Positions 43,446 through 59,009 of a DNA stretch of 60,861 bases are shown here, piece after piece. The stretch's first letter is position 1. Every line of letters starts with the position of its first letter. This DNA is from an uncultured virus (IMG/VR IMGVR_UViG_3300042881_004014) (lineage: Duplodnaviria > Heunggongvirae > Uroviricota > Caudoviricetes): the IMG/VR virus record IMGVR_UViG_3300042881_004014; one strand, given 5' to 3'. The notes under the pieces were generated by a model. That model was not told the origin of the DNA. It did no database searches and saw only the letters and a list, made by a program, of their open reading frames with translations. The translations under genes and the position numbers were made by a program.

Positions 43446-44015
43446 TTATTTATTTAAAAATCCTATTACTTTTTCTTTAATCCCACTTTGTTTGATACCT
43501 TCATTACTTCTAGCAGTTAGTACAAAGTTATCAAGTCCATGTCCTTGATTGTATTCCGGACTCATATTAAGGTCATCTATTGCAACCCATGTTTCAATTT
43601 CAGAATTTAATTCCAAATACTTTTCAATCTCCAATATTCTTTTTTTACTATACCAACCCTTCCAACTGAAAAGTGCATCGGATTCTGAATCCCAATCACC
43701 TAAATTTGGTGTGAATGCTAACGGTCTTTTACTAATACCTTGCTCAATATAGTAATCACCCAACTCTTCTAATGTAGCATGTAATTTCCAATCCGAACTA
43801 ACAATTATTTCAGCACCAGTTTCCTCAAGTACTTCATTCAATACCTTAATAGCTTTTTCATCGAAATTATCCAACCTTACATTCACCGGGGCTTCTTTTT
43901 GAATTAAAGATGAGTTTGGATTATCCGAACGATACTTACTCCATTTCTTACTTCTACCTCCCCAATTGTTAGAGAGGCAAATTACACCATCATTATCTAA
44001 AAATATAACTTTCAT
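43446..44015 (-). CDS. HAD-domain protein (RNA-repair-associated 'Swiss Army Knife' type)
   Basis: FLDNDGV, VSSDW, R..EI, AIDD. Confidence 0.75.
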   Translation of the reverse strand: MKVIFLDNDGVICLSNNWGGRSKKWSKYRSDNPNSSLIQKEAPVNVRLDNFDEKAIKVLNEVLEETGAEIIVSSDWKLHATLEELGDYYIEQGISKRPLAFTPNLGDWDSESDALFSWKGWYSKKRILEIEKYLELNSEIETWVAIDDLNMSPEYNQGHGLDNFVLTARSNEGIKQSGIKEKVIGFLNK

Positions 44016-44500
44016 TATTTCATTTTTTTAATACTATCCAACAATTCGGGATATTCCAATAGTAATTTTGGATTATTTTTCAAAGTTTGAATTGTAATAT
44101 CATTCTTTAACTTAGTAGTACTCCAACCATGTGCTCTTGATGTGAATATAACTTTAGGTGTTAAGTTATCACCGGTAAATCGTTTACCAATATAATCCTC
44201 ACCCAATATTCTAACATCAGGTTTAAAAAACTCAATTAATTGTATAAGCTCTTCTTCAGTTTGATAAGTATAAACCGCATCAACTGATTCTAATTCCATT
44301 AAAGTATTATATCTTTCAGCACGAGGTACAACGGGTGTATATTTATTAGCCCTATCAATAGATGGGTCATTTTGTAGAAACACCATAAAGTAATCACAAT
44401 GCTTTTTTGCAGTTTGAAAGGTGTAAACGTAACCTGGATGAATGATATCGAAGTTACCTGCGGTAAATCCTACTATCTTTTGTTCTCCGTTTATAATCAT
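44015..44500 (-). CDS. Cytidylyltransferase-like (TagD/RfaE-domain) protein
   Basis: GNFDIIHPGY, ER, GEDY, WSTT. Confidence 0.8.
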   Translation of the reverse strand: MIINGEQKIVGFTAGNFDIIHPGYVYTFQTAKKHCDYFMVFLQNDPSIDRANKYTPVVPRAERYNTLMELESVDAVYTYQTEEELIQLIEFFKPDVRILGEDYIGKRFTGDNLTPKVIFTSRAHGWSTTKLKNDITIQTLKNNPKLLLEYPELLDSIKKMK

Positions 44501-44796
44501 TTTATTCTTTGTTTATAATCTCCCACTTAAAAGGAGGTCTATTTCTTTGATACTCACGCATTGACCAATCAATATCATCAGTTTTTAATGTTATTAATTC
44601 TGGTTGTGGGTTGTTATAATCCAACCAAGTGATTTTAATAATGTAATTCATACTTTAAAATTTACCCCATTGGGATTTATGTCTATTTTCTTCAGCTATC
44701 TTAAAACCCAACCAAATATCCTTAAAGAATGATTTGATATTATTAATTATTTTGTTCATATTACAAATATACTAATTATTTTTTAATTATCCAAAT

Positions 44797-45141
44797 TTAT
44801 TTCCAAAATATCTGTATTCCTATTAATATTGCTGCTAAAATCAATGATATACCTGTTTTTGCATTAATACCCTCATTCATAAATATAAATGTGAGAATAG
44901 CAAACGTAATCATCCCACCAGCTTGCCCTATAAATCTTCCCGGCCATAATTGCCCATCAAAGTGTTCAGCAACCAAAGAAGTTCCTTTAATAAAAATGTA
45001 AGATATTAAGGTCCCACCCATTAGAGATATTAAGAATGGATTACGTTTGAACCAAGGCCAAACGAATTGCCCATTGGTTTGTATCCAAATTATACATTGG
45101 GCTATTGTAAATAATATAACTCCCCAAATTAGGTTTTTCAT
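44797..45141 (-). CDS. Four-TM small membrane protein
   Basis: Four hydrophobic helices. Confidence 0.65.
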   Translation of the reverse strand: MKNLIWGVILFTIAQCIIWIQTNGQFVWPWFKRNPFLISLMGGTLISYIFIKGTSLVAEHFDGQLWPGRFIGQAGGMITFAILTFIFMNEGINAKTGISLILAAILIGIQIFWK

Positions 45142-45150
45142 ACAATCATT

Positions 45151-45462
45151 TTATTTATGAGATGAAAACCCTTTTATGGTACGGCCATCTTTTTCCAATT
45201 TAGTTTCGATATCTTCTAATCGTTTATCAAAATCATCCAAAGATGTATTGATATTATTTAGTGCGGAATTTATATCTGTAAATCCTTTATTAACATCATC
45301 TACTATTGTATAATCATTTTCTTCTAATTCTTCCAATTTTCCACCATTGACTGGTATTTTGGGTTTAGATGTTCTAACAATTAAAATGGTTAACATTACT
45401 ATTGGTGCAAATATTAATAATACTATAAATATTGCTACGATTGTATTGAATATTTCTATCAT
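45151..45462 (-). CDS. Membrane-anchored coiled-coil protein
   Basis: N-terminal TM plus heptad repeats. Confidence 0.65.
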   Translation of the reverse strand: MIEIFNTIVAIFIVLLIFAPIVMLTILIVRTSKPKIPVNGGKLEELEENDYTIVDDVNKGFTDINSALNNINTSLDDFDKRLEDIETKLEKDGRTIKGFSSHK

Positions 45463-45466
45463 GCTT

Positions 45467-46078
45467 TTAAGTTATAAATTCAGTATCTTTCTTTAAGTCA
45501 ACATAGACTCCTTTATAAATACCTTCATTAAATTTATTAATAACCTTTTCAACCAACATTGTTGGAGTACCTGTTATTTGGTACAATCCATCCATTAGTT
45601 TAATGACATCTCTAGTTGAATCTATTGGATTAATTGGTGTAATTGTTTCTACTTCCAGTACACCATCTATATATTTTTGAAATTTTAAATAATTTTTAAT
45701 TATTAACATATTATCACTGTTAATTTCAACAACTACACCCTTTGATAAATCTCTGAATGTGTTCCATAAATACCAATTAACACATTTTAAATCAACTAAT
45801 ATTCTATTCTTAAATGCCAATCTATATCCATCATCTAAAATTTCTTTCAATTTAGGTAAATCGGGACTATCAGATACCAAACAAACATCAGCATCCCAAG
45901 TTTTAGGATTTGATGGGTTGTTTAAATACTCAGCAAATCCACCAGCTAAATAAACTTCATATTCAGATAAATCATGCAGCTCTGATAGTTCTTTGTACCA
46001 CATAGTTAATGTGTACAACTCAGGTCTACCCCACACAAGGGTAGTTGTTAAATTATCAAATCTACAAAAAAAATCCAT
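45467..46078 (-). CDS. Putative pol-beta-family nucleotidyltransferase
   Basis: YLAGGFA...TWDADV...VD. Confidence 0.5.
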   Translation of the reverse strand: MDFFCRFDNLTTTLVWGRPELYTLTMWYKELSELHDLSEYEVYLAGGFAEYLNNPSNPKTWDADVCLVSDSPDLPKLKEILDDGYRLAFKNRILVDLKCVNWYLWNTFRDLSKGVVVEINSDNMLIIKNYLKFQKYIDGVLEVETITPINPIDSTRDVIKLMDGLYQITGTPTMLVEKVINKFNEGIYKGVYVDLKKDTEFIT

Positions 46079-46228
46079 TATCTATTTTTAATACCTTTGT
46101 TTTTACCGGCAATTATAGATTCTAATTTATCAGTTAGTTTTTCAATAGTATCTGAATTTCCTTGATTACCTTTCAGTTTCTCAGTTTTAATTGTATTGGT
46201 AAGTAAATTAATCACTTCCTCTTTTTTC

Positions 46229-46534
46229 TTATCGTTCATACAGTTTGTTTAAATATTCAAATACTTTTTCTGAAAATAATGTATTGTACACATCACTTCC
46301 TATTTCAGATGCTTCAACTATGATACCTGATTTTGCATAATTCAATGCATATGCGATATCGTATTGTGAATATATTGGTTTTGCTCTATCAAGCTCTTCA
46401 TTAATCATATTGATAAAATCATCTGATTTTAACCACTCATCATACTCAGCATCTCTTAAATCAGCATTGTAAATATATCCTTCCAATTCTTCCTCTGGAA
46501 TACTATTAATCATAAATTCTTTTGTTCTACCCAT
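46229..46534 (-). CDS. Hypothetical protein
   Basis: 101-aa ORF. Confidence 0.6.
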   Translation of the reverse strand: MGRTKEFMINSIPEEELEGYIYNADLRDAEYDEWLKSDDFINMINEELDRAKPIYSQYDIAYALNYAKSGIIVEASEIGSDVYNTLFSEKVFEYLNKLYER

Positions 46535-46572
46535 TTTTATTAATTGTTATGTTATACTCTAATATACAAATT

Positions 46573-47310
46573 TTATACTTTTTCGTTTGTTGGTTTTAAC
46601 CACATACCATCTTTAAATATTAGGTTTAAAAAACCAGGGATGATTTCATCTACATCCATAAGTAATCTAAGACTTTTTGGTGTATCATATTTCATCATCT
46701 TCATTAACTCTTCTCTAATTCTTTCACCACTAACAGTTTGTTCTAATTTCTTTAGGATGTTAGGTTGTTTCATTGCTTCCCAAATATCATCACTCATAAC
46801 AAAATCCTTTGTGATTGTAAATCTTAATGCTCTTAGAATTCTCAAAGGGTCATCCATCATAGTTTGTTTAGCTGGTAATGGAGTTCTTAATAAACCTATT
46901 TTTAAATCATCAATTCCACCAAATATATCTATAAGGTTTCCATCAATATCCTCAGCCATAGCGTTTAATGTAAAATCTCTTCTAAGTAAATCATCTTCCA
47001 ATGTTCCCAATTCTAAGATTGGTCTACGAGTTCCCTCAACATATCCAACTTCCTTTCTTGCCATTACGAAATCAGCAACCATCCCAGAGTATTTATGTTC
47101 TTTTGGGAACTTAGCTCTGATAGTAAAACACTCAGGTGTACTTAGGAATATTTCAAAATCATTTACAGTCATCCAATCTGTCATTATTTGAAATCCACTC
47201 TCTACAGTCCAATCTAAGTTGTCCAAAACAAATGTGAAGTCAATATCTTTTGTATCAACCCCTAACAACCTATCTCTAACACAACCCCCTACTTTGAATA
47301 TCTTTGGCAT
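46573..47310 (-). CDS. cca: tRNA nucleotidyltransferase (class II CCA-adding/poly(A) polymerase family)
   Basis: VGGCVRD, DIDF, ARKE, DLLRRDFTLNAMA, DDPLRILRALRF, SGERIREEL. Confidence 0.88.
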   Translation of the reverse strand: MPKIFKVGGCVRDRLLGVDTKDIDFTFVLDNLDWTVESGFQIMTDWMTVNDFEIFLSTPECFTIRAKFPKEHKYSGMVADFVMARKEVGYVEGTRRPILELGTLEDDLLRRDFTLNAMAEDIDGNLIDIFGGIDDLKIGLLRTPLPAKQTMMDDPLRILRALRFTITKDFVMSDDIWEAMKQPNILKKLEQTVSGERIREELMKMMKYDTPKSLRLLMDVDEIIPGFLNLIFKDGMWLKPTNEKV

Positions 47311-47410
47311 AACCTATCTTTTTTATTACATAGTAAATATACAAAATATAATTGATATATCCTAATATTTTAAAAGAAAAAGAGCAACTATTTTAGCTGC
47401 TCTTTATCAA

Positions 47411-48556
47411 TTAGTGAGAATCTCCCACATCATTTTTCTCTCCATAAATAAGGTAGTCAGGGTTTATAACCTTAGCTACTTTATTACGTTCACCTGTATG
47501 GTATTTGATTACAATTCCTTCATGTGGAACCTTAGTACCTTCAATCATATTTTTAAATACGAATTTATCTTGCACCTCTTGCGACCAATTTCCAAAATGT
47601 AATATTTCAACATAAGGTAATTGTAATATATCTTTAATCATCAATTTAGAATTGATAGGACTTAAATACTCACCATTCTCCTTTACATCGAATCCTACAA
47701 ACTCCATTTCTGTCAAACCATAATCATAGTTCTTTTGAATTCCGGCCCCATAGATTTCTCCATAGATTGTGATTCCATCTCCAATTTCTGGTTCCATTGA
47801 ATTACTTTTAACGTATTCCCATAACCTCTTTTTGATTTCATATTTATCCGCAATTTGGTACCAAACATTGGTATCATAGAAACCTTGAGAATCCGAACCC
47901 TTTTCTACATTATGTGAACCAACTACAAATTCATACCCAATCCACTTATCAGCAAACCCAATGAACTTCTTAACCTTATCCCAAAATGATAATTTAAGTT
48001 TCTTAACAATACCATATCTAGCATTAGTACCATGTATCTTACGAGTAATTTCAACGGTATCTTCTTCAGTAAACATTCCATCCACATTTTTTAGGTTTGG
48101 GAATTTATAGTAGATGTGGAAGTTTGGATTGTCTTGGTATCTAATCTTTCTACCTCCGGCTAATTGGATTTGTTTAACTGGTGGTTCGTATTTAGTAATT
48201 CCTAAGAATTCCATACAATCATCACCTTCGCCTAAATCAAAATCACCCATAGTAACTCTACCACGTAGGTATTTCATTGGGATAATTAAACATTCAGAAT
48301 AAACACCTCTTAATTTTACAGTCCTAACTCTATTACCTTTACGAAGATAGTTAGTTACACCCATCTCTTCAGAAAGTTCTTCAGGTATAACCGCATCAGT
48401 TGTAGCAATGATTGTTTCATCACCAATAGTAAACTCTCCCTTCTTAGTGATTGCATTCCAACCACCAGCAACTACCAATTCGATGTTATCAGCACCCTCA
48501 ATTGGATTTACTTCTTTGATTTTTGCTATGTAGCAAACTGAATTTTCGTTTTTCAT
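47411..48556 (-). CDS. RNA ligase, DRB0094/Rnl2 family
   Basis: N-terminal IEGADNIE and LRGVYSECL; KIHGTN; GEIYG.GIQ; FDV; EGIV; K.I. Confidence 0.88.
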   Translation of the reverse strand: MKNENSVCYIAKIKEVNPIEGADNIELVVAGGWNAITKKGEFTIGDETIIATTDAVIPEELSEEMGVTNYLRKGNRVRTVKLRGVYSECLIIPMKYLRGRVTMGDFDLGEGDDCMEFLGITKYEPPVKQIQLAGGRKIRYQDNPNFHIYYKFPNLKNVDGMFTEEDTVEITRKIHGTNARYGIVKKLKLSFWDKVKKFIGFADKWIGYEFVVGSHNVEKGSDSQGFYDTNVWYQIADKYEIKKRLWEYVKSNSMEPEIGDGITIYGEIYGAGIQKNYDYGLTEMEFVGFDVKENGEYLSPINSKLMIKDILQLPYVEILHFGNWSQEVQDKFVFKNMIEGTKVPHEGIVIKYHTGERNKVAKVINPDYLIYGEKNDVGDSH

Positions 48557-48559
48557 TTC

Positions 48560-48973
48560 TTATAATTTTATTTCAAATCTATTTCTCATTCTTTCAACTG
48601 CTTCAGTTGGAACACCATGTTGGTTTACACCACCATGTCTATTCTCAACTACTAATGAGTAAACCTGATATCCATAGGTTTTTGCTAAGGTAAAATATAT
48701 ATCCATCTCCCATTTTTGAGTAAAAGTGTTAGATACTACTATTTTTCTATAAAATTGGTCATTAACTAATGAATCCTTCATATAAGTTTCTACTGTATTT
48801 CTACAAAACTCATGTGCATCTTTTAGTTTAGAACCATCGAAGTTATAGTTACCTTCCTTATCATAAAAATACTTATCAGCTTCACATACTAAGAAATCAC
48901 TTTCTACTATTGAATTTGCTAATGTTGATTTACCACTACCTGGCAATCCTCTTAATAAAAATAATTCTTTCAT
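48560..48973 (-). CDS. P-loop polynucleotide kinase-like (AAA_33) protein
   Basis: RGLPGSGKST, EAD, VSNTF, HGVP. Confidence 0.85.
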   Translation of the reverse strand: MKELFLLRGLPGSGKSTLANSIVESDFLVCEADKYFYDKEGNYNFDGSKLKDAHEFCRNTVETYMKDSLVNDQFYRKIVVSNTFTQKWEMDIYFTLAKTYGYQVYSLVVENRHGGVNQHGVPTEAVERMRNRFEIKL

Positions 48974-48976
48974 AAC

Positions 48977-49639
48977 TTACTTTTTATAGTTTTCTACAAT
49001 TGTATGATGGTCTTTATCTAAAAATCCATCAATAGGTTGTTTATCTAATATTCTAACAATATCACTCATACTAATTGGTGATAAGTTGTTACCATCTACA
49101 CCAACATCCATAACTTTACCTCTACCAACTCTTCGGTTAGGTGGTAAGTGAACGTGTCCATGTAAGTGAGGAACTCCCTTACCTAAACCATCCCAACTTG
49201 CTATTGGGTAGTGCATACACACAAAATGAGTTCCATCATGTTTACCACTACCATCGGGCCATTTGATACTCAAATCTAAATATTGATGAACTGAACTGAA
49301 TATCTCAGCGATACCATCTCTATTGTTAGCTATGTGGTGGTCGTGGTTACCTAATACTAAGTGAATGTTTTGACAAACAATTCGGTTTCTAAATTCAGCG
49401 ATTGAATCAAATCCACCAAAAGACCAGTCACCTAAGTGAATTAAGATATCATCTTGTCCAACTACTGCATTGATATTATTAACTAATACGGCATTCATTT
49501 GGTTCAATGTATCGAAATCTCTGAAATGGTTTGCACCAGCTCTATCCCATTGTGTTGTTCCTTTACAAATGTTAGCATGGTTATAGTGGGTATCACTTGT
49601 GAACCATACTTTTTGTCCTTTATTTAGTAATATCTTCAT
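48977..49639 (-). CDS. Metallophosphoesterase
   Basis: TSDTH, HLGD, GNHD, HYP, HGHVH, DVGVD. Confidence 0.88.
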   Translation of the reverse strand: MKILLNKGQKVWFTSDTHYNHANICKGTTQWDRAGANHFRDFDTLNQMNAVLVNNINAVVGQDDILIHLGDWSFGGFDSIAEFRNRIVCQNIHLVLGNHDHHIANNRDGIAEIFSSVHQYLDLSIKWPDGSGKHDGTHFVCMHYPIASWDGLGKGVPHLHGHVHLPPNRRVGRGKVMDVGVDGNNLSPISMSDIVRILDKQPIDGFLDKDHHTIVENYKK

Positions 49640-52740: not shown

Positions 52741-52770
52741 GCTATCTTAAATTAAATTATTAATATTTTG

Positions 52771-52856
52771 CGGAAAGAGTAGGATTCGAACCCACGATAC
52801 CTTTCAGTATGCCGGTTTTCAAGACCGGTGCAATCGACCAACTCTGCCATCTTTCC
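52771..52856 (-). tRNA. tRNA-Ser(TGA)
   Basis: Cloverleaf, long variable arm, CT-TGA-AA loop. Confidence 0.92.
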
Positions 52857-52863
52857 TCTTTTG

Positions 52864-52935
52864 TAGTCCCACCGGGAATCGAACCCGACTTTTCAGGATG
52901 AAAACCTGATGACCTAACCGATAGTCGATAGGACC
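52864..52935 (-). tRNA. tRNA-Glu(TTC)
   Basis: TCAGG-TT-TTC-AT-CCTGA. Confidence 0.92.
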
Positions 52936-53074
52936 ATATAAATGTGAGCCAAACTTATGTACTTAGTGGGTGTACTCCGTTTATACTACTCTCACATTCA
53001 AATCAGTAGTGTGATGTTAATGGTTGAAAGATATTTACCTTCCTTTCGGCCTACCATCGTGGCCCATGCGTTTG

Positions 53075-53150
53075 TGGAGCGAATAGCAGGAATCGAACCT
53101 GCATCTCCAACTTGGAAGGATGGAGTAATAAGCCATTATACGATATTCGC
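53075..53150 (-). tRNA. tRNA-Gly(TCC), encoded CCA
   Basis: CT-TCC-AA loop, U73-CCA. Confidence 0.92.
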
Positions 53151-53156
53151 TTATAT

Positions 53157-54010
53157 ACGATGAGAATACTCGTTTTAATGAACCAGCTTTATAAGGGTTA
53201 TTGGTTGCCTTAATTTCCACTTCCTTTTGAGAAGTACCAATTCAATGTGGGTAAGTAATGTCCTACCACTCATAAAGTTACAAACTACTCTCTTTGTAGT
53301 CCACCTCTTCGAATCTGCCGACCCGATTAACACCTCGCGATGCTAGAAGTTTTTCGAAAGAATCACATTTCCCTTGAGAGGATTTGTGGCAGGGAACAGC
53401 TCCCTACTATGTACACACCTTTCGTCTGCAACTGGTAACCTCTTTCTCTAGTTTGTTTTTTGATTTTGCGTCAATAGGCAAATTGAGTTTTGGTTTGTAG
53501 ATAAATTCAAGTAGTGGATTACCACTAGCTCCGCCCCATTTTGAAGAACGGAATACTATACTACTCGATACGTTATCTCTAACGTCATACTTTAAGATTA
53601 CTTCAGTACCCACTCTTTGGTGAGAGGTAGGTAAGGATGATAACAACACCACTTGTACTTCATCATACCTTTCGGTTTTAAGTAACCTTTAATATTGAAT
53701 CACGCAATGATAAGGAGAGATTAAGTCCTCACTTCTTGCATTAATTCTATGGGTTATTTTTATTGGTGTTCCCACCTCAACTGAAGTATCTACAATACCC
53801 CAGTCATCATTCCATTTCGCTACGGAGTTACCCTCACTACATTCAGGAACAATGATATCCCACTTGCCTACTCAAGCTCCATCCGAAGATGAAACCGCAA
53901 ACCCCTCTAAACCAAAGAGATTCACTTTATCCTACTTTCGTAGTTTATTTAACGACCATAGGCGGCCGTTATACACTATGTAGAACAAGTCTACTATGTG
54001 CAATATTTTC
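53157..54010 (-). ncRNA. GOLLD-like large structured RNA (about 850 nt)
   Basis: No credible ORF, raised GC, many hairpins with GNRA/UUCG loops, embedded among tRNAs, own promoter (54040-54071); size and context match GOLLD. Confidence 0.65.
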
Positions 54011-54015
54011 AATAC

Positions 54016-54027
54016 TTTCAAAGAACT
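54016..54027 (-). promoter_or_regulatory. boxA-like antitermination element
   Basis: AGTTCTTTGAAA just downstream of promoter; related copies at 56259-56270, 56724-56734 and 58838-58849. Confidence 0.6.
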
Positions 54028-54105
54028 AATTTTCTTTTTCAAAGATACGAATAATTTTTCAATTATCCTAATCTTTTTTTAATTATTTTTCAATAATTTA
54101 TTTAG

Positions 54106-54178
54106 TTGCGGGAGAGGGAATCGAACCCCCGACCTCAAGGTTATGAGCCTTGCGAGCTACCGCTGCTACTATCCCGCT
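54106..54178 (-). tRNA. tRNA-Met(CAT), initiator-like
   Basis: 1:72 mismatch, GCGGG acceptor, CT-CAT-AA. Confidence 0.85.
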
Positions 54179-54279
54179 ATATATGTTTAAGAACTTAATT
54201 TTCAACTTCTATGTATATAAGTATATACAAATATACCAAAACGTAAAAAAAATCGAAAAATAATTTAATTTTTTTATTG

Positions 54280-54353
54280 TGGACCAGAATGGATTCGAAC
54301 CATTGACCTACGCATTATGAGTGCGGTGCTCTAACCAACTGAGCTACAAGTCC
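54280..54353 (-). tRNA. tRNA(CAT), probably Ile2 (lysidine) or elongator Met
   Basis: GGACTTGTAGCTCAG...CT-CAT-AA. Confidence 0.85.
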
Positions 54354-54359
54354 AAAACG

Positions 54360-54480
54360 AGAGAGGGTTCGGGTCTTTCAAGGTTTCTGATTAAGTGCAA
54401 TGAGTGACGTCTTTCTACTATAAACCTTTTTTCGAAAATTAATACACTCTACCTCTTAATTACAGCTTCACTCCCTCTCT
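54360..54480 (-). ncRNA. Candidate rod-like ncRNA (possibly 6S-like)
   Basis: AGAGAGGG/CCCUCUCU closing stem; ACCUUGAA near 3' end. Confidence 0.35.
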
Positions 54481-54488
54481 ATTTTTTA

Positions 54489-54674
54489 CTACTTTGCGTC
54501 TGCTTCAGTAGTAATTTCTGCTACAGTTGAATCAGTTGCGATTACAGCTGATGAATCCGTTGCTACTGCAGTTGAGTCTGTTGTTGACGTTTCTGTGTTT
54601 GATTGTTTGTTTCCACAAGATGCCATAACTACCGTTACTGCTACTACTGTTAAAATTGCCATTACTTTTTTCAT
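54489..54674 (-). CDS. Small Ser/Thr-rich lipoprotein
   Basis: MKKVMAILTVVAVTVVMASC lipobox; TDS repeats. Confidence 0.75.
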   Translation of the reverse strand: MKKVMAILTVVAVTVVMASCGNKQSNTETSTTDSTAVATDSSAVIATDSTVAEITTEADAK

Positions 54675-54732
54675 AACTTTTGTTTTAATTGTTTTAAATT
54701 GATAAATAAACATAGGAACCTACCTATATTTG

Positions 54733-54827
54733 TAATCATAATTGGATTCGAACCAATTCCAGCTTTACAATAAAGAACCTTTCGATTCAACCTTTGTGAG
54801 GTGCCGCCAACCAATGGCCTTATGATT
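54733..54827 (-). ncRNA. tRNA-like RNA with rearranged anticodon region
   Basis: AAUCAUA/UAUGAUU+A acceptor, canonical UUCGAAU T arm, GCCA/UGGC D arm, no canonical anticodon arm. Confidence 0.6.
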
Positions 54828-54895
54828 ATTTAAATGAACTATACAAATATACGAAATGTTTTTCACAATTCCAAATATTTTTTCATTTATTTTTG

Positions 54896-54969
54896 TGGAG
54901 GATATCGGAGTCGAACCGATGACCCCCTGCGTGCAAGGCAGGTGCTCTAGCCAGCTGAGCTAATCCCCC
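54896..54969 (-). tRNA. tRNA-Ala(TGC)
   Basis: G3:U70, CT-TGC-AC. Confidence 0.93.
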
Positions 54970-55066
54970 ATTAATCACATCGTACCGGCATTCTGGTTCT
55001 CGCTAACAGAAATTCCATCTCATTTAACCCAGTCTGTGCGATGTGGGTACCGGAGGATGTGATTTG

Positions 55067-55145
55067 TAGTCAGAGCCGGATTCGAACCGGATAAGCAACC
55101 ACTTTATTGGATTCGGGAACCGTCCCTCATTACGCCCATCTGACC
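55067..55145 (-). ncRNA. tRNA-like RNA (acceptor and T arm intact, D/anticodon arms non-canonical)
   Basis: GGUCAGA/UCUGACU+A; CCGG-UUCGAAU-CCGG. Confidence 0.6.
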
Positions 55146-55220
55146 ATTTTAAACATCCAGTCTGACCTTCCAGACAGTACAAGTCGGTATTAATTTCACG
55201 TGCCGTTTTGTAGTGAATGT

Positions 55221-55463
55221 TTAATATCCTATTTGTTCTTTAATCTCCCATTGCTTTTCAATAGAAATTCTTTCAATTCTCTCTACTGGTACAAACCCAT
55301 CCAATCCCTTATCTTTAACATCTTCAAAATGTTCGATAGTATCTAAACGAAATCCGAACTTATATCTGATGTATTGGAACTTTTCACCATCCCAATATGC
55401 AGTATGGTTATTTCTGCAAAATCCATTGTACCAACCTTCTTTCATTTCAATTTTTGGTATCAT
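55221..55463 (-). CDS. Hypothetical protein within tRNA array
   Basis: 80-aa ORF. Confidence 0.65.
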   Translation of the reverse strand: MIPKIEMKEGWYNGFCRNNHTAYWDGEKFQYIRYKFGFRLDTIEHFEDVKDKGLDGFVPVERIERISIEKQWEIKEQIGY

Positions 55464-55477
55464 ACTTTTTGTTTTAG

Positions 55478-55551
55478 TGAACCCATCAGGAATCGAACCT
55501 GAAACCTACACATTAGAAGTGTGTTGCTCTATCCAATTGAGCTATGGGTCC
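55478..55551 (-). tRNA. tRNA-Arg(TCT)
   Basis: ACACA-CT-TCT-AA-TGTGT. Confidence 0.93.
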
Positions 55552-55570
55552 AAATTCACACTCTATTTTA

Positions 55571-55735
55571 TCCAACTACAAGTGTGGTGGTTGTCCCCAT
55601 AGCGGGCCCATTGGGCCTTTGATTGGGTTAGGAATAAACCAATTAAACTCTTTCGGAGCAGATGGTTAATCTGGATAGAGCCTTTCCCTATCAGAAGTCC
55701 CATATGGCCATCACACCACTTCTCATCATATTGGA
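55571..55735 (-). ncRNA. Unassigned multi-stem ncRNA (about 165 nt)
   Basis: Long closing stem plus five short hairpins. Confidence 0.5.
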
Positions 55736-55765
55736 CATACTATCCGTTGTATGTTACGGAACGTG

Positions 55766-55837
55766 CGGTCTCACCGGGAATCGAACCCGGCATACCGCCG
55801 TGACAGGGCGGCGTTATAGCCGATTAACTATGGGACC
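55766..55837 (-). tRNA. tRNA-Asp(GTC)
   Basis: CT-GTC-AC, G73. Confidence 0.93.
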
Positions 55838-55923
55838 AAAAGTGATAGGTGACCCTCCTATCGTGAAATGATATATCATTTCTTTTCTTTATAGAATCCG
55901 AAGATACTGTAGGAACATTTTTG

Positions 55924-55996
55924 AGCCTCCGGTCGGGCTCGAACCAACCACCTGCTGATTACAAATCAGCTGCTCTACCAAATGAGCTACGGAGGC
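55924..55996 (-). tRNA. tRNA-Thr(TGT)
   Basis: GCTGA-TT-TGT-AA-TCAGC. Confidence 0.93.
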
Positions 55997-56157
55997 AAAA
56001 TTAGGAAAGCTACCTGATATCTTTACAGCCGAATTAGGTACGGATTTCTACATTTAGAATGTTCCTCAAATTCAAACCCCTTTTATGTCCGTACTATGTG
56101 GAGGATAAAAAACCACATTAGTTGATAAAAAATGAATTCTTCACCTCTTTCCTATTG

Positions 56158-56242
56158 TACCGATGGGCGGACTCGAACCGCCACGAGCATTACTACCCAA
56201 GGGATTTTAAGTCCCTCGTGTCTACCATTTCACCACATCGGC
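56158..56242 (-). tRNA. tRNA-Leu(TAA)
   Basis: CT-TAA-AA, variable arm. Confidence 0.93.
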
Positions 56243-56352
56243 ATTTTAGATTTTCAACATGTCAAAGAACAAAACTGTCTCTCTTTTACTATGTAAAGAT
56301 ACAACATAATTTTGAATTATACAAGCTTTTTTAAAAACTTTTATAATTTTTG

Positions 56353-56719
56353 TGGAGGTGGCGAGAGTCGAACTCGCGTCCAAATACGGATTTAATAAAC
56401 ATCATTCACAAGCTTAGTACATTTTTCTTAATGTACAAAATAGATAAAGATTTATACATTCATTATCATTAATGTTTCCAACTCGATTTCGGGTTCAGTT
56501 GGGTTCCACCTGAGTTCACATTCTATTTTAAGTCCCACGATGTGTGCGGGAGGGATTATGCTGCTACAGCGTAATCGGCACCAACGAAAGACATAGCATC
56601 TTCGAAGGTCATTGTAGATAATTCTACTGCGTTTATTGTTCGATAGGTATTTACGGATTTCCATCTAACCCGGCTTGCAACTTACCAATTCATCGTACCT
56701 GTCAAAACCAGGCACCCCC
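56353..56719 (-). ncRNA. ssrA: tmRNA
   Basis: GGGGGUG/CACCUCC+A with G3:U70; UUUUGAC; T arm UUCGACU; tag ORF 56630-56556 AVELSTMTFEDAMSFVGADYAVAA*. Confidence 0.92.
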
Positions 56720-56802
56720 ATAAATCAAAGAACTTATCTTTTTTGATACTTCAAATATACAAAATCTTTTTGGTATTTCCAAATTTAATTTCAATTATTT
56801 TG

Positions 56803-56876
56803 TGACCCCGAATGGATTCGAACCATTGACTCCCTCATTAAAAGTGAGGTGCTCTAACCAACTGAGCTACGAGGTC
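56803..56876 (-). tRNA. tRNA-Lys(TTT)
   Basis: CCTCA-CT-TTT-AA-TGAGG. Confidence 0.93.
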
Positions 56877-56882
56877 ATTCTG

Positions 56883-56952
56883 AGGTTAAGGTTGGAATCG
56901 AACCAACTCCGTAGATTTTGCAGACCTACCGGCCTCCAAGACCATCCTAACC
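56883..56952 (-). tRNA. tRNA-Cys(GCA), compact non-canonical
   Basis: U73, 5-nt D loop, 6-bp anticodon stem, 3-nt variable loop. Confidence 0.8.
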
Positions 56953-56956
56953 ATTC

Positions 56957-57409
56957 CTATCTACAAGTGTAATCTGCTGCCCTTGTTGCGATTTGCATAT
57001 CAGGTTTAAGATTAACTTCATATCCTAATGAGTTTGCCCAACCCTTTGTAGATTGTACTAACTTAGAAGAGTAATGCTTTTCATTTAAGTTGTAATCTAA
57101 ATCAATCTGAATAGTTACACCTAAGTTACTCCTTAACCATTCAGCCACTTCAATAGAATATTCAGTTTCTTTCCACAATCTTGTCCACTTATCTAAAATC
57201 TTATCTACTTTTAGTTTGTGATTAATATAGTGTACACCTGTATTACCATACCTATACGCAATTACAATTGAATATGATGTACAATCTGATAAGTTTTGAG
57301 AATCACACCCAATATGAATATCCGCATGTGGACATTCTTTTAATATATCAATCGTATGTTGTACGATATCTACCACTTCCCCATTTACTTTTCTAAAAAC
57401 TTTTACCAT
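56957..57409 (-). CDS. RNase H-like YkuK/DUF458-family protein
   Basis: IGCDSQ, RLWKETEYSIEVA, IDLD, S, KP, AAD. Confidence 0.8.
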   Translation of the reverse strand: MVKVFRKVNGEVVDIVQHTIDILKECPHADIHIGCDSQNLSDCTSYSIVIAYRYGNTGVHYINHKLKVDKILDKWTRLWKETEYSIEVAEWLRSNLGVTIQIDLDYNLNEKHYSSKLVQSTKGWANSLGYEVNLKPDMQIATRAADYTCR

Positions 57410-57435
57410 TACTATTAATATTAATTATTAAATTG

Positions 57436-57508
57436 TGGAGGTGAGTGGAATCGAACCACTTCCTCTGGATTTTCAGTCCAGCGCTTCTACCAAGTTAGCT
57501 TCACCTCC
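57436..57508 (-). tRNA. tRNA-Phe(GAA)
   Basis: CTGGA-CT-GAA-AA-TCCAG. Confidence 0.92.
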
Positions 57509-57513
57509 TTTTG

Positions 57514-57584
57514 CACGGGTAGAAAGATTCGAACTTCCATCTAAGCTTTTGGAGAGCCGTATGCTACCATTGCACCATACCCGT
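57514..57584 (-). tRNA. tRNA-Trp(CCA)
   Basis: CT-CCA-AA, G73. Confidence 0.9.
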
Positions 57585-57590
57585 ATTTTG

Positions 57591-57662
57591 TACACTTAGA
57601 GAGATTCGAACTCCCATTATCCGGTTCGTAGCCGGAGGTTCTATCCGTTGAACTATAAGTGC
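57591..57662 (-). tRNA. tRNA-Arg(ACG)
   Basis: TCCGG-CT-ACG-AA-CCGGA. Confidence 0.92.
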
Positions 57663-57666
57663 ATTG

Positions 57667-57748
57667 TACCCAAGGAGAGACTCGAACTCTCAAGCCTTTC
57701 GGCCACGGTTTCTAAGACCGCTGTGTCTACCAATTCCACCACTCGGGC
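57667..57748 (-). tRNA. tRNA-Leu(TAG)
   Basis: CT-TAG-AA, variable arm. Confidence 0.92.
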
Positions 57749-57755
57749 ATTGTTG

Positions 57756-57829
57756 GGTGATTAATGGGATTCGAACCCATCCTATCAGAATCACAATCTG
57801 ACGTGCTAACCGCTAACACTATAAACACC
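57756..57829 (-). tRNA. tRNA-His(GTG)
   Basis: G-1:C73, TT-GTG-AT. Confidence 0.92.
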
Positions 57830-57896
57830 ATGTTGTGTATAATATATTATCCATTTACCCCATATATCTGAGTTTTATATAATATATTGTACATTG

Positions 57897-57966
57897 TTGT
57901 GTGTATGAGGTTCGAACTCATTTGGTCATCCTTATGAGAGATAACTCTTTTCCACTAAGCCACACA
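57897..57966 (-). tRNA. Atypical tRNA(CAT)
   Basis: UGUGUG/CACACA acceptor, 3-bp D stem, 7-bp anticodon stem, CU-CAU-AA, T arm AUGAG-UUCGAAC-CUCAU. Confidence 0.7.
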
Positions 57967-57971
57967 ATTTA

Positions 57972-58153
57972 AAAGAAGTATAACCAGAATTTTGTGTAAA
58001 CCTATCATTTGTCTTTTTGCCCCAACCTTGTCCGAATTGCTCACCTTCATAGACTATTTTGGGTTGCATCCTCAGTAGTAAAACGAATTTCTTCTCCTAC
58101 TTTAAGCAATGATGTTCTGAGTTTCCTCTCCGTAGAGCGATAGGAACTTCTTT
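57972..58153 (-). ncRNA. rnpB: Minimal RNase P RNA (catalytic domain only)
   Basis: P1 AAAGAAGU/ACUUCUUU, P2 CCUAUC/GAUAGG, CR-I GAGGAAACUCAGAAC, CR-IV AGACAAAU, CR-V ACAAAAUUCUGGUUAU, P5 CAUC/GAUG+CAA, L15 GGU. Confidence 0.85.
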
Positions 58154-58154
58154 G

Positions 58155-58242
58155 CGGAGAGTATAGGATTCGAACCTATGGAACCCTTACGAGTTCAACA
58201 CCTTAGCAGGGTGCCGCTTTAAACCAACTCAGCCAACTATCC
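58155..58242 (-). tRNA. tRNA-Ser(GCT)
   Basis: CT-GCT-AA, long variable arm. Confidence 0.92.
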
Positions 58243-58247
58243 AATTG

Positions 58248-58321
58248 TTGGTAATATAGGAATCGAACCTATAACCTTTCGCGTATCAGGCGAATGCTCT
58301 AACCAATTGAGCTAATTACCA
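58248..58321 (-). tRNA. tRNA-Ile(GAT)
   Basis: TTCGC-CT-GAT-AC-GCGAA. Confidence 0.92.
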
Positions 58322-58399
58322 ATAAGTTGCAGGATATCGCTTAACCTGCGGTGTTGATATCATTACACACCTTTGATGTTACCACCAGCGATTTTTTTG

Positions 58400-58483
58400 T
58401 GGGAGCAGAAGGATTCGAACCTACTACCTATGCGGGTTACCAGATTTACAGTCTGGCGCCTAACCAATTCGTGCGTTACTCCC
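58400..58483 (-). tRNA. tRNA-Tyr(GTA)
   Basis: CCAGA-CT-GTA-AA-TCTGG, variable arm. Confidence 0.88.
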
Positions 58484-58589
58484 AATGGCGTTCCATATTA
58501 CTCACATCTGATAACCATATTGGGTTACCCACTTAATCTTACAACAGCTTTAAACTGAGAGATTGTAAGAATGTGTATGGAACATTTTG

Positions 58590-58663
58590 TAGAAGATATA
58601 GGATTCGAACCTATGACCCTTTGGATGTAAACCAAATGCTCTAACCAACTGAGCTAATCTTCT
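58590..58663 (-). tRNA. tRNA-Val(TAC)
   Basis: TTTGG-TT-TAC-AT-CCAAA. Confidence 0.92.
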
Positions 58664-58668
58664 ATTTG

Positions 58669-58744
58669 TCTAGATGGTAGGATTCGAACCTACGTGCTCT
58701 CGCGTCCAAGGCGAGCGAGAAAAACCTGACTCCTCTACATCTAG
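58669..58744 (-). tRNA. tRNA-Pro(TGG)
   Basis: C1:G72, CT-TGG-AC. Confidence 0.9.
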
Positions 58745-58750
58745 TTATTG

Positions 58751-58821
58751 TTATCCCTCGAGGACTCGAACCTCGACTGCCTGAATCAAAGTCAGGTGTC
58801 CTGCCATTAGACCAAAGGATA
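58751..58821 (-). tRNA. tRNA-Gln(TTG)
   Basis: U1:A72, CT-TTG-AT. Confidence 0.92.
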
Positions 58822-58858
58822 ATTTGTGTTACCAATATTTCAAAGAACTATACTTTTG

Positions 58859-58930
58859 CGGGGAGGGAGAATTTCGAAATCTCGACCTGATGATTAACAG
58901 TCATCTGCTCTTCCTCTGAGCTACCACCCC
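58859..58930 (-). tRNA. tRNA-Asn(GTT)
   Basis: GATGA-CT-GTT-AA-TCATC, G73. Confidence 0.9.
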
Positions 58931-58938
58931 AATAAATT

Positions 58939-58975
58939 AAAAAACCCCTAACTAAATTTTCATCAGTTAGGGGTT
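58939..58975 (-). terminator. Intrinsic terminator (attenuator) immediately upstream of tRNA array
   Basis: AACCCCUAACU...AGUUAGGGGUU stem followed by U-tract, 8 nt before tRNA-Asn. Confidence 0.85.
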
Positions 58976-59009
58976 CTTAAATACTTTACTATTTAATCTC
59001 TACATTATA

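What the first reader, a model, noticed from the sequence alone, without database searches (positions are those of the whole stretch)
57972..58153. 182-nt RNase P RNA stripped to its catalytic domain
Seen: every catalytic-domain element in order. P1 (8 bp); P2 CCUAUC/GAUAGG; P3 CUC-UACG-GAG; P4 AAC[U]CAGAA/UUCUGGUU with the bulged U; P5 CAUC/GAUG; J5/15 CAA; P15 CCC/GGG with the L15 GGU; P16 GUCU/GGAC; a possible P6 pseudoknot UUGC/GCAA; CR-IV and CR-V. The specificity domain is reduced to one hairpin of about 35 nt, and P18 and P19 are absent. Established: bacterial RNase P RNAs are usually 350-400 nt, the S-domain reads the tRNA D/T-loop elbow, and archaeal type T RNAs are about 210 nt. Inference: a near-minimal natural RNase P ribozyme that, being elbow-blind, could mature this phage's non-canonical tRNAs, probably with host RnpA.
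Basis: partly seen in the sequence, partly recalled or inferred. Interest (0 to 1): 0.9.

Follow-up and report, generated by a model that had tools for sequence, protein, structure and literature searches.

The report
Phage-encoded miniature RNase P ribozyme
A 182-base gene wedged between two tRNA genes of a 271-kb lake-water phage is a real, stripped-down copy of the RNase P ribozyme that trims tRNAs, and it belongs to a family found in dozens of large phages, which no paper in the library I searched describes.

Summary
On the minus strand, 58153→57972 exactly fills the gap between tRNA-Ser(GCU) and a tRNA(CAU). It carries every catalytic-domain element of a bacterial type-A RNase P RNA: P1–P6, P15–P17, the L15 GGU, CR-I, CR-IV and CR-V, and the bulged U in P4. 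The specificity domain is replaced by one hairpin and P18 is missing.

Evidence for homology:
- Rfam's only match to the element is an RNase P model (24.4 bits, E 1.3e-5). It is far below the gathering score because the S-domain is deleted.
- I found at least 55 IMG/VR phage contigs and 3 GenBank huge-phage records with homologues. Twelve of 20 scanned hit RNase P models at E 1e-6 to 4e-14.
- On 31 sequences, 94.4% of cells pair (75.6% when shuffled) and 30 of 40 pairs show compensatory changes. This includes both pseudoknots, P4 and P6.

The family is essentially phage-only; just 2 tiny contigs in bacterial genome bins carry it. It is often flush with co-oriented tRNAs. None of 6 carrier phage genomes encodes RnpA.

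The most likely function is 5' maturation of the phage's own tRNA array, probably with host RnpA. Catalysis is untested. Eight literature searches found no prior report.

The parts
57972..58153 (-). Whole 182-nt RNase P RNA (P1 outer pair to P1 outer pair)
   Evidence: Sequence. Rfam RF00373 match 57971-58154, E 1.3e-5. Family model R1 scores 172.9 bits, and it is the only hit in the 270,865-bp genome.
58146..58153 (-). P1 5' strand, AAAGAAGU. It begins directly after tRNA-Ser plus one C.
   Evidence: Pairs 8/8 with 57972-57979. In 26 of 28 parsed homologues P1 is 7-18 bp, with unrelated sequences.
57972..57979 (-). P1 3' strand, ACUUCUUU. It lies 3-4 nt upstream of tRNA(CAU).
58139..58144 (-). 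P2 5' strand, CCUAUC
   Evidence: Pairs with 58001-58006. 86.5% of cells pair across 31 sequences, and 5 of 6 pairs change on both sides. The search model did not encode this helix.
58001..58006 (-). P2 3' strand, GAUAGG. It overlaps the end of CR-IV, as in E. coli rnpB.
58128..58137 (-). P3 hairpin, CUC-UACG-GAG
   Evidence: 96.6% of cells pair.
58115..58127 (-). CR-I and the P4 5' strand: AGGAAAC[U]CAGAA, with bulged U at 58120
   Evidence: GAGGAA, the bulged U and the following C are invariant in 14 diverse members. It aligns to GAGGAAAgUCC of the Rfam RNase P models.
57982..57997 (-). CR-V (ACACAAAA) and the P4 3' strand (UUCUGGUU)
   Evidence: P4 is a perfect 8 bp in 28 of 28 parsed members, in about 15 sequence versions. 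94.3% of cells pair and 5 of 8 pairs are compensatory.
58111..58114 (-). P5 5' strand, CAUC (3' strand GAUG at 58067-58070)
   Evidence: 100% of cells pair; 2 of 4 pairs are compensatory.
58105..58110 (-). P6 pseudoknot 5' strand, AUUGCU (3' strand AGCAAU at 58036-58041, in the P17 loop)
   Evidence: 89.5% of cells pair and 5 of 6 pairs are compensatory. The helix was not in the search model.
58074..58101 (-). Single hairpin replacing the S-domain: a 5-bp P7-like stem, a conserved asymmetric internal loop, and a 3-bp inner stem with a GAAA loop
   Evidence: The P7-like stem pairs in 98.7% of cells, with 4 of 5 pairs compensatory. The Rfam alignments delete the S-domain model positions here.
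58054..58066 (-). J5/15 CAA, P15 5' strand CCC, and the A-rich AAAAUAG
   Evidence: Collinear with GCAAGGCCAAAUAG of E. coli rnpB. GCAAC is invariant.
58021..58054 (-). P16/P17 arm, L15 (AAGGUU, 58024-58029) and P15 3' strand GGG
   Evidence: P15 pairs in 93.5% of cells, P16 in 100%, P17 in 100%. GGU is invariant in 14 members.
58005..58014 (-). CR-IV, AGACAAAUGA. It follows P15 after only 5 nt, so there is no P18.
   Evidence: AGA..AAUG is invariant. It aligns to uAGAugAAUG of RF00010 and RF00373.
58154..58242 (-). Upstream tRNA-Ser(GCU). Its 3' processing would create the ribozyme's 5' end.
   Evidence: ARAGORN and Rfam.
57896..57968 (-). Downstream tRNA(CAU). RNase P cleavage at its 5' end would create the ribozyme's 3' end.
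   Evidence: ARAGORN. Rfam tRNA scores 24.7 bits, below the gathering score.
46573..47310 (-). Phage CCA-adding enzyme (PolyA_pol head plus RNA-binding domain), a likely functional partner. It supplies the CCA that L15 GGU reads.
   Evidence: Pfam PF01743 at 1.3e-18 and PF12627. Only 1 of 26 array genes encodes CCA.

Best explanation
The element is a phage-encoded RNase P RNA of bacterial type-A ancestry that has lost the specificity domain and P18.

Proposed mechanism:
1. It is transcribed as part of the minus-strand tRNA array.
2. It is cut out by tRNA end-processing. Its 5' end comes from 3' trimming of tRNA-Ser. Its 3' end comes from RNase P cleavage at tRNA(CAU), done by the host enzyme at first and later possibly by itself.
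3. It folds into the P1-P4 catalytic core, braced by the P6 pseudoknot.
4. It removes the 5' leaders of the phage's 25 tRNAs and tmRNA. It would read the acceptor end through the J5/15 adenosines (U at -1) and through L15 GGU pairing with the 3' CCA, which the phage's own CCA-adding enzyme supplies.
5. Because no phage RnpA exists, it most likely borrows host RnpA.

Shown: homology, architecture, purifying selection on the structure and on the catalytic and substrate-binding nucleotides, the phage-specific distribution, and the position inside tRNA operons.

Inferred: transcription, excision, catalysis, and the protein partner.
For: Identity:
- The only Rfam match to the element is RNaseP_arch: E 1.3e-5, full model length, S-domain positions deleted.
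- 12 of 20 homologue loci hit RF00010 or RF00373 at 32-54 bits, E 5e-6 to 4e-14.
- The residue-level alignment of one homologue to RF00010 places P1-P3, GAGGAAA, GCAA, AAAnAG, GGGUA, AGAUnAAUG and ACAGAA..GG.UUA correctly. It deletes the S-domain and P18.
- The element is collinear with E. coli rnpB. The phage-derived model picks rnpB as the best hit in a 2-kb E. coli locus (19.3 bits, E 3e-4).

Selection on structure:
- On 31 sequences, 94.4% of cells pair against 75.6% shuffled (0 of 500 shuffles as high).
- The covariation score is 0.559, against 0.194 shuffled and 0.055-0.092 when the partners are slid.
- 30 of 40 pairs are compensatory.
- P2, P4 and P6 were not correctly encoded in the search model, so their pairing (86.5, 94.3 and 89.5%) is not a fitting artefact. 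The wrongly nested version gave only 37-54% for the affected helices.

Selection on function:
- The bulged U, CR-I/IV/V, L15 GGU and the J5/15 adenosines are invariant in 14 diverse members.

Context:
- There is a single copy in a complete phage genome.
- Co-oriented tRNAs lie within 450 nt in 16 of 31 homologue loci, and within 10 nt in 11 of 31.
- U at -1 occurs in 20 of 26 array genes.
- A CCA-adding enzyme and an RNA-repair module lie beside the array.

Precedent:
- The E. coli C-domain alone is catalytic with and without C5. It depends on a P6-mimic and does not need P18 (PMC5839562, abstract). That is the same architecture nature kept here.

Expression hint:
- Near-identical contigs spanning tRNA-Ser, the ribozyme and tRNA(CAU) occur in two RNA-library runs of one study.
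Against: - No activity data exist.
- The score is far below every Rfam RNase P gathering threshold: 24.4 against 84 bits for the element, and at most 54 against 84-100 for relatives.
- Wider scans missed the element.
- Fold stability is not unusual (z-score -0.11).
- RNA-library contigs do not prove transcription, and two other RNA runs gave no cover of the element.
- A roughly 93%-similar relative appears to lack exactly this 183-nt segment, so it is dispensable for some relatives.
- 15 of 31 homologue loci have no tRNA within 450 nt.
- Engineered C-domains are much less efficient than the full enzyme (PMC5839562, abstract).
- The host and its RnpA are unknown.
Confidence: 0.78

Rival explanations
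1. It is a non-catalytic mimic. The RNA keeps the RnpA-binding face of the catalytic domain so that it can soak up or redirect host RnpA. This would throttle host tRNA maturation or regulate phage tRNA supply, without cutting anything itself.
For: No phage RnpA was found in 6 of 6 carrier genomes, so any protein partner must be the host's or unknown. Loss of the S-domain and P18 is expected to weaken catalysis (PMC5839562, abstract).
Against: Elements that contact the substrate or metal ions rather than the protein are invariant and covary. These are L15 GGU, the J5/15 adenosines, the bulged U of P4 and the P6 pseudoknot. A decoy would not need them. The element sits inside tRNA operons.
Confidence: 0.08
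2. It is an active RNase P-type ribozyme whose main job is not general tRNA maturation. Instead it acts in cis or locally, for example to punctuate the long array transcript or to process tmRNA, GOLLD or mRNAs, or it works with an unknown phage protein rather than RnpA.
For: It is flush with neighbouring tRNAs, and its own 3' end is a pre-tRNA leader. GOLLD and tmRNA are in the same array. 15 of 31 homologues have no tRNA within 450 nt. An RNaseH-like (PF04308) gene lies in the array, and 4 of 5 other carrier phages have one.
Against: Nothing in the sequence distinguishes it from a general trans-acting enzyme. The PF04308 genes are not adjacent to the ribozyme in the other phages, and no background frequency was measured.
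Confidence: 0.09
3. It is a decaying relic, or a chance look-alike: a captured bacterial rnpB fragment drifting toward loss, or a structured spacer.
For: It is below the Rfam thresholds. A close relative seems to lack it. The MFE is ordinary.
Against: At least 55 viral contigs and 3 huge-phage genomes keep it, with compensatory changes in every helix and invariant catalytic motifs. Only 2 of 35 pattern matches in 185,579 species' genomes are real, and both are on contigs under 1 kb.
Confidence: 0.03

Closest known systems
Bacterial type-A RNase P RNA (Rfam RF00010; E. coli M1 RNA / rnpB, 377 nt)
   Same: Same order and topology of P1, P2, P3, P4 (bulged U), P5, P6, P15, P16, P17. Same CR-I, CR-IV and CR-V, the 3-nt J5/15, the A-rich J15/16 and L15 GGU. 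P6 together with P16/P17 marks it as type A rather than type B; this distinction is recalled.
   Different: It has no S-domain: P7-P14 is reduced to one hairpin. It has no P18. It is 182 nt rather than 377 nt. It is encoded by phages inside tRNA arrays. P4 reads AAC-U-CAGAA instead of AAG-U-CCGGG. It scores 24-54 bits against the 100-bit threshold.
Archaeal type-T RNase P RNA of Thermoproteaceae (Rfam RF02357; PMC3579882, sections 3 and 5 read)
   Same: A natural RNase P RNA that keeps the catalytic domain and lacks most of the specificity domain. It is likewise missed by the standard models.
   Different: Type T has a 3-bp P2, a 2-nt P5/P15 linker and a shortened P15, and it retains P8/P9-type stubs (PMC3579882, section 5). 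The phage RNA has a 6-bp P2, a 3-nt linker, bacterial L15 GGU and P6. It is viral rather than cellular, so the reduction is convergent.
Engineered E. coli C-domain ribozyme, 'Eco CP RPR' (PMC5839562, abstract read)
   Same: A catalytic domain without the S-domain. Activity depends on a P6-type pairing, and P18 is dispensable. The phage family keeps exactly this minimal set.
   Different: It is a laboratory truncation with reduced efficiency. The phage RNA is a natural, evolutionarily maintained gene with its own conserved replacement hairpin.
Theta (HDV-like) ribozymes next to tRNAs in gut phages (PMC10879173; search listing and the start of the abstract seen only)
   Same: A phage-encoded ribozyme embedded in a tRNA context and tied to tRNA maturation.
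   Different: Those are small self-cleaving ribozymes of an unrelated fold. This one is a trans-acting RNase P homologue.

Membership tests
RNase P RNA (Rfam clan CL00002) | P4 helix with a bulged U, flanked by CR-I (GAGGAAA) and CR-V (ACAGAA-type) | tested here: met
   Present in the window. P4 is a perfect 8 bp plus the bulged U in 28 of 28 parsed members. 94.3% of cells pair and 5 of 8 pairs are compensatory. The motifs are invariant.
RNase P RNA (Rfam clan CL00002) | CR-IV (AGA..AAUG) leading into the 3' strand of P2, with P1-P2-P3 in order | tested here: met
RNase P RNA (Rfam clan CL00002) | Score at or above a family gathering threshold | tested here: not met
   The window scores 24.4 bits against 84. 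Relatives score 32-54 bits against 84-100. The shortfall comes from the deleted S-domain and P18.
RNase P RNA (Rfam clan CL00002) | Specificity domain (P7-P14, CR-II/CR-III) that reads the tRNA elbow | tested here: not met
   Only a 28-nt hairpin lies between P6 and P5'. Rfam alignments delete 117-140 S-domain model positions. No S-domain-like match was found elsewhere in the genome.
RNase P RNA (Rfam clan CL00002) | Endonucleolytic removal of pre-tRNA 5' leaders | not testable with these tools
   Needs a cleavage assay.
Bacterial type A (RF00010) | P6 pseudoknot and the P15-P16-P17 arm with L15 GGU | tested here: met
   P6 pairs in 89.5% of cells with 5 of 6 pairs compensatory. P15, P16 and P17 pair in 93.5-100%. 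GGU is invariant.
Bacterial type A (RF00010) | P18 helix | tested here: not met
   Five nt lie between P15' and CR-IV in the window. By eye, extra hairpins sit there in 4 of 31 relatives: L218, L224, L230, L251.
Archaeal type T (RF02357) | 3-bp P2, 2-nt P5/P15 linker, shortened P15, archaeal host (PMC3579882, section 5) | tested here: not met
   P2 is 6 bp and the linker is CAA, 3 nt. The context is a tailed-phage genome with bacterial-type tRNAs and tmRNA.

The most novel reading that the evidence does not exclude
Large phages carry their own RNase P. It is the first virus-encoded RNase P ribozyme and the smallest natural bacterial-type one. It liberates itself from the tRNA operon and then matures the phage's tRNAs. 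It does so either without any protein or with a phage-specific partner instead of RnpA, which would make tRNA supply independent of the host's essential RNase P.
Probability: 0.3. Interest if true: 0.95.

Novelty: new variant of a known kind. Interest (0 to 1): 0.86.

Why it matters
RNase P RNA is one of the two universal ribozymes, and until now it has been regarded as a cellular or organellar gene. A phage-borne family would have several consequences:
- It extends the list of translation-related functions that large phages bring with them to an RNA enzyme.
- It provides a natural experiment on what the minimal bacterial RNase P needs. The family keeps P1-P6, P15-P17 and L15, and has lost the S-domain and P18. 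This matches what truncation studies of the E. coli enzyme concluded.
- It offers roughly 180-nt natural scaffolds for structural and engineering work.
- It raises testable questions about how phages take over or bypass host tRNA processing.
- It shows that current Rfam models miss this class, so phage annotation pipelines overlook it.

Tried and rejected
Searches that gave nothing or mostly noise:
- Pattern AGACAAATGATN{5,12}ACARAA in viral contigs gave more than 116 stretches. Of the 117 loci then held, only the already known L001 was real.
- Pattern 2 gave 100 stretches, of which 8 were real.
- Pattern 4 gave 33 new loci. Twelve were unconfirmed by the model and had no Rfam match, so I treated them as chance.
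- The window-wide Rfam scan, a 451-nt Rfam scan and an RF00010 search of the genome did not report the element.
- blastn of three family members against 50,697 GenBank phage records found no cultured phage. The only hits were LR756501, LR756502 and LR756503.
- The search of earlier findings returned nothing.
- Eight literature searches and a term search of PMC7162821 found no phage RNase P RNA. PMC6582537 (passages read) was irrelevant.

Ideas tested and dropped:
- MFE stability as evidence: z-score -0.11.
- A phage rnpA: none in 6 genomes.
- An S-domain supplied in trans from elsewhere in the genome: no RF00010 partial match.
- An own promoter or terminator at the element: consensus sites in the array are no more frequent than in shuffles.

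Method problems:
- The model I then built had P2 and P4 mis-nested, because P4 crosses P2. I kept it for searching and counted pairs with the correct topology.
- The automatic P1 calls were unreliable (checked). I therefore do not claim that the window's RNA is strictly the shortest of all roughly 50 members. It is the shortest of the 28 parsed strictly, and it ties for the shortest core (167 nt).

Sequencing runs:
- RNA runs X17 and X20 gave no cover over the element. That is not evidence of absence.

Full report
**What is at the coordinates**

All 25 tRNA genes, a tmRNA and a GOLLD RNA in window 52.7-58.9 kb lie on the minus strand. The finding's interval, read on the minus strand (58153→57972), exactly fills the gap between tRNA-Ser(GCU) (58154-58242) and a tRNA(CAU) (57896-57968). 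No ORF of 50 aa or more overlaps it on either strand.

In RNA numbering, position p corresponds to window coordinate 58154-p.
- P1: 1-8 with 175-182.
- P2: 10-15 with 148-153.
- P3: 17-19 with 24-26, with a UACG loop.
- CR-I: GAGAGGAAA.
- P4: 31-33 and 35-39 with 165-172, with bulged U34.
- P5: 40-43 with 84-87.
- P6: 44-49 with 113-118.
- A 28-nt hairpin at 53-80.
- J5/15: CAA.
- P15: 91-93 with 131-133.
- AAAAUAG.
- P16 and P17.
- L15: AAGGUU.
- CR-IV: 140-149.
- CR-V: 157-164.

Only five nucleotides separate P15' from CR-IV, so P18 is absent.

**Is it more than chance?**

Three results count against at first sight:
- The minimum-free-energy fold is no more stable than shuffles (z-score -0.11).
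- The Rfam scan of the whole window at gathering thresholds found no RNase P match.
- A 451-nt scan at E up to 10 found none either, and neither did an RF00010 search of the whole genome.

A scan of just 57968-58157 gave a single match of any family. It was RNaseP_arch (RF00373) at 24.4 bits and E 1.3e-5, covering 57971-58154 end to end. The model's S-domain positions were deleted, and GAGGAAA, GCAA, AAAAUAG, AGnCnAAUG and ACAnAA..GnUUA were aligned.

**Homologues**

blastn found a 70%-identical stretch in the 642-kb uncultured huge phage LR756502. A second family member used as the query found LR756501 and LR756503. A third query found nothing. No cultured phage matched.

Degenerate patterns taken from conserved blocks were scanned over IMG/VR.
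- The first pattern gave only chance hits.
- The second gave 8 real loci out of 100.
- The third (CR-I to P6) gave 35 stretches, of which 34 are real. L220 is false. L226 was confirmed later to carry an insertion of about 390 nt in the hairpin.
- The fourth (P5' to the P17 loop) added 33 new loci, of which 21 are real. The other 12 have no Rfam match at all.

That makes at least 55 IMG/VR contigs, many of them 100-530 kb.

The same third pattern over one genome for each of 185,579 prokaryotic species gave 35 stretches. Only 2 are real, on contigs of 530 and 845 nt in genome bins. The family is therefore essentially phage-specific.

The window's own record is a 270,865-bp virus that CheckV rates 100% complete. 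It has a large terminase and exactly one copy of the element.

**Independent link to RNase P**

Of 20 homologue loci scanned against Rfam, 12 hit RNase P models over the full model length. Seven hit RF00010 at 44-53.5 bits, and five hit RF00373 at 32-54 bits, with E from 5e-6 to 4e-14. All are below the gathering scores. The other 8 loci gave no RNase P hit.

The residue-level alignment of L241 to RF00010 shows P1-P3, CR-I, J5/15, P15, L15 GGGUA, CR-IV and CR-V in register. About 140 S-domain positions and the whole of P18 are deleted.

Compared side by side with E. coli rnpB (377 nt), the window RNA is collinear block for block. A model built only from phage sequences finds rnpB as its best hit in a 2-kb E. 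coli locus (19.3 bits, E 3e-4).

**Covariation**

I had written P2 and P4 as nested, but P4 crosses P2, so the model does not encode P2, P4 or P6 correctly.

It still recovered 31 of 33 sources at E 3.5e-37 to 1.2e-12, with one hit in the 60.9-kb window.

Pairs were counted on that 31-sequence alignment with the correct topology.

| Measure | Observed | Control |
|---|---|---|
| Cells forming a standard pair | 94.4% | 75.6% shuffled (0 of 500 as high) |
| Pairs with changes on both sides | 30 of 40 | 21.5 shuffled |
| Covariation score | 0.559 | 0.194 shuffled; 0.055-0.092 with partners slid by 1-3 columns |

Percentage of cells paired, per helix:

| Helix | Paired |
|---|---|
| P2 | 86.5% |
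| P3 | 96.6% |
| P4 | 94.3% |
| P5 | 100% |
| P6 | 89.5% |
| P7-like | 98.7% |
| P15 | 93.5% |
| P16 | 100% |
| P17 | 100% |

The mis-nested version scored only 37-54% for the affected helices, which serves as an internal negative control.

A separate script examined 37 candidate loci. Three were duplicates and six failed my strict criterion of 8 perfect pairs; those six include L220, which is not a family member. That left 28 distinct members parsed. All 28 have a perfect 8-bp P4 plus the bulged U, in about 15 different sequence versions. In 26 of the 28, P1 is 7-18 bp and the sequences are unrelated. L001, L233 and L252 have a 7-bp P4.

In 14 diverse members the following are invariant: GAGGAA, the bulged U and the next C, ACA of P5, UUAA, GGAG, GAGG.UGCAAC, the J5/15-J15/16 adenosines, GGU of L15, AGA..AUG and ACA..A.

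**Size**

The window RNA (182 nt) is the shortest of the 28 strictly parsed members; the others are 185-301 nt. Its 167-nt core ties with the shortest core among the 21 members found later. Automatic P1 calls on that later set were unreliable, so I do not claim an absolute record.

The family ranges from 182 nt to about 570 nt (L226). Length differences come from three sources:
- Insertions at the tip of the replacement hairpin.
- By eye, extra hairpins at the P18 position in 4 of 31 members.
- An insertion between CR-IV and CR-V in one member, L225.

None of the insertions matches S-domain models.

**Context and likely mechanism**

Co-oriented tRNAs lie within the 450-nt flanks in 16 of 31 homologue loci. 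In 11 of 31 they lie within 10 nt of the P1 ends, as in the window (0 and 3-4 nt). The RNA is therefore most simply a cistron of tRNA operons, released by the enzymes that trim tRNAs. Its 3' end is the 5' leader of the next tRNA, which makes it an RNase P product.

In the array:
- U occupies -1 in 20 of 26 genes. This fits the bacterial enzyme's preference; that the J5/15 adenosine contacts -1 is recalled knowledge.
- Only 1 of 26 genes encodes CCA.
- 25 of 26 have C after the discriminator.

A CCA-adding enzyme (46573-47310) lies just beside the array. So does an RNA-repair set at 43446-49639: HAD_SAK_2, a cytidylyltransferase-like protein, an RNA ligase, a kinase-like AAA_33 protein and a metallophosphoesterase. 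The phage therefore brings the means to create the 3' CCA that L15 GGU would read.

No RnpA (PF00825) is detectable in this genome or in five other carrier genomes of 270-533 kb. The protein partner, if there is one, is the host's or is unknown.

Published work on the E. coli enzyme shows that the C-domain alone cleaves with and without C5, depends on a P6-type pairing and does not need P18 (PMC5839562, abstract). This matches what the phage family retains.

**Expression**

Fourteen DNA runs labelled lake-water metagenome hold at least 0.91 of the sampled words.

In two RNA-library runs of one study, contigs of 831 and 360 nt cover 57901-58248 and 57945-58248, with 3 and 2 differences. They span tRNA-Ser, the whole element and part of tRNA(CAU). 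RNA libraries can contain DNA, and contigs show neither strand nor ends, so this is only a hint.

**What is not supported**

- 22 of 25 tRNAs score at least 50 bits against the Rfam tRNA model.
- Two score 33-39 bits.
- Only the downstream tRNA(CAU) falls below threshold, at 24.7 bits. It still has a 7-bp acceptor stem and a UUCGAAC T-loop.
- Neither ARAGORN nor Rfam finds a tRNA-Gly(ACC).

**Comparison and novelty**

It works like, and descends from, bacterial type-A RNase P RNA. It fails that family's S-domain, P18 and score criteria.

It resembles archaeal type T in having lost the S-domain. It differs in the features that define type T: a 3-bp P2, a 2-nt linker and a shorter P15 (PMC3579882, sections 3 and 5).

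Eight full-text searches found no report of a phage- or virus-encoded RNase P RNA. The huge-phage paper whose genomes carry it does not contain the term in its main text (PMC7162821; its supplements were not examined). Subscription-only literature was not searchable.

I rate it a new variant of a known kind, of high interest. Catalysis is the key untested step.

Noticed in passing
window 53157-53568 (-): A full-length GOLLD RNA (Rfam 257 bits) sits in the same tRNA array as the ribozyme and the tmRNA. I did not examine whether GOLLD and the mini RNase P co-occur in other phages.
   Followed up: no
window 56352-56719 (-): A phage tmRNA with an unusual, long tag peptide ending in YAVAA (ARAGORN; Rfam 115 bits).
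   Followed up: no
window 56957-57409 (-): A 150-aa RNaseH_like (PF04308) ORF lies inside the tRNA array. The family is also present in 4 of 5 other ribozyme-carrying phage genomes, but not next to the ribozyme there, and in only 2 of 14 control bacteria. It is a possible RNA-processing partner. I measured no background rate in phages that lack the ribozyme.
   Followed up: partly
window 43446-49639 (-): A tRNA repair and maturation module lies next to the array: HAD_SAK_2, a cytidylyltransferase-like protein, a CCA-adding enzyme, an RNA ligase with an OB domain, an AAA_33 kinase-like protein and a metallophosphoesterase.
   Followed up: partly
window 52770-58930 (-), the tRNA 3' ends: 25 of 26 array genes have C after the discriminator, usually followed by A-rich sequence, but only tRNA-Gly(UCC) encodes a full CCA. 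It is a conserved 'C then A' trailer of unknown meaning.
   Followed up: no
window 58322-58398 (-) and 58484-58588 (-): Two array spacers fold better than shuffles. The first is a 77-nt three-hairpin, loosely tRNA-like element (z-score -2.2). The second is a 105-nt nested structure (z-score -3.83, 0 of 200 shuffles as stable).
   Followed up: partly
L226 / L290:~60-640 (G002, a 482-kb phage): A family member is split by an insertion of about 390 nt at the tip of the replacement hairpin. The insertion has no Rfam match, including no intron families.
   Followed up: partly
window 57968→58152 (RNA-library run X20): A contig about 93% similar to the window joins tRNA(CAU) directly to tRNA-Ser, skipping exactly 183 nt (the ribozyme) with one G in between. 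It looks like a presence/absence polymorphism among relatives.
   Followed up: no
L218 and L224 (also L230 and L251): GC-rich family members carry one or two extra hairpins between P15' and CR-IV, some with GNRA-type loops. That is the position of P18. They could be retained or regained P18-like elements.
   Followed up: no
L236, hairpin insertion: The insertion in this member's replacement hairpin contains a stretch resembling a tRNA T-arm (GUUCGAAUC flanked by complementary bases). ARAGORN calls no tRNA there.
   Followed up: no
window 58940-58978 (-): A strong terminator-like hairpin (16 bp plus a U-run) lies immediately upstream of the first tRNA of the array. No convincing promoter was found after it.
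   Followed up: no
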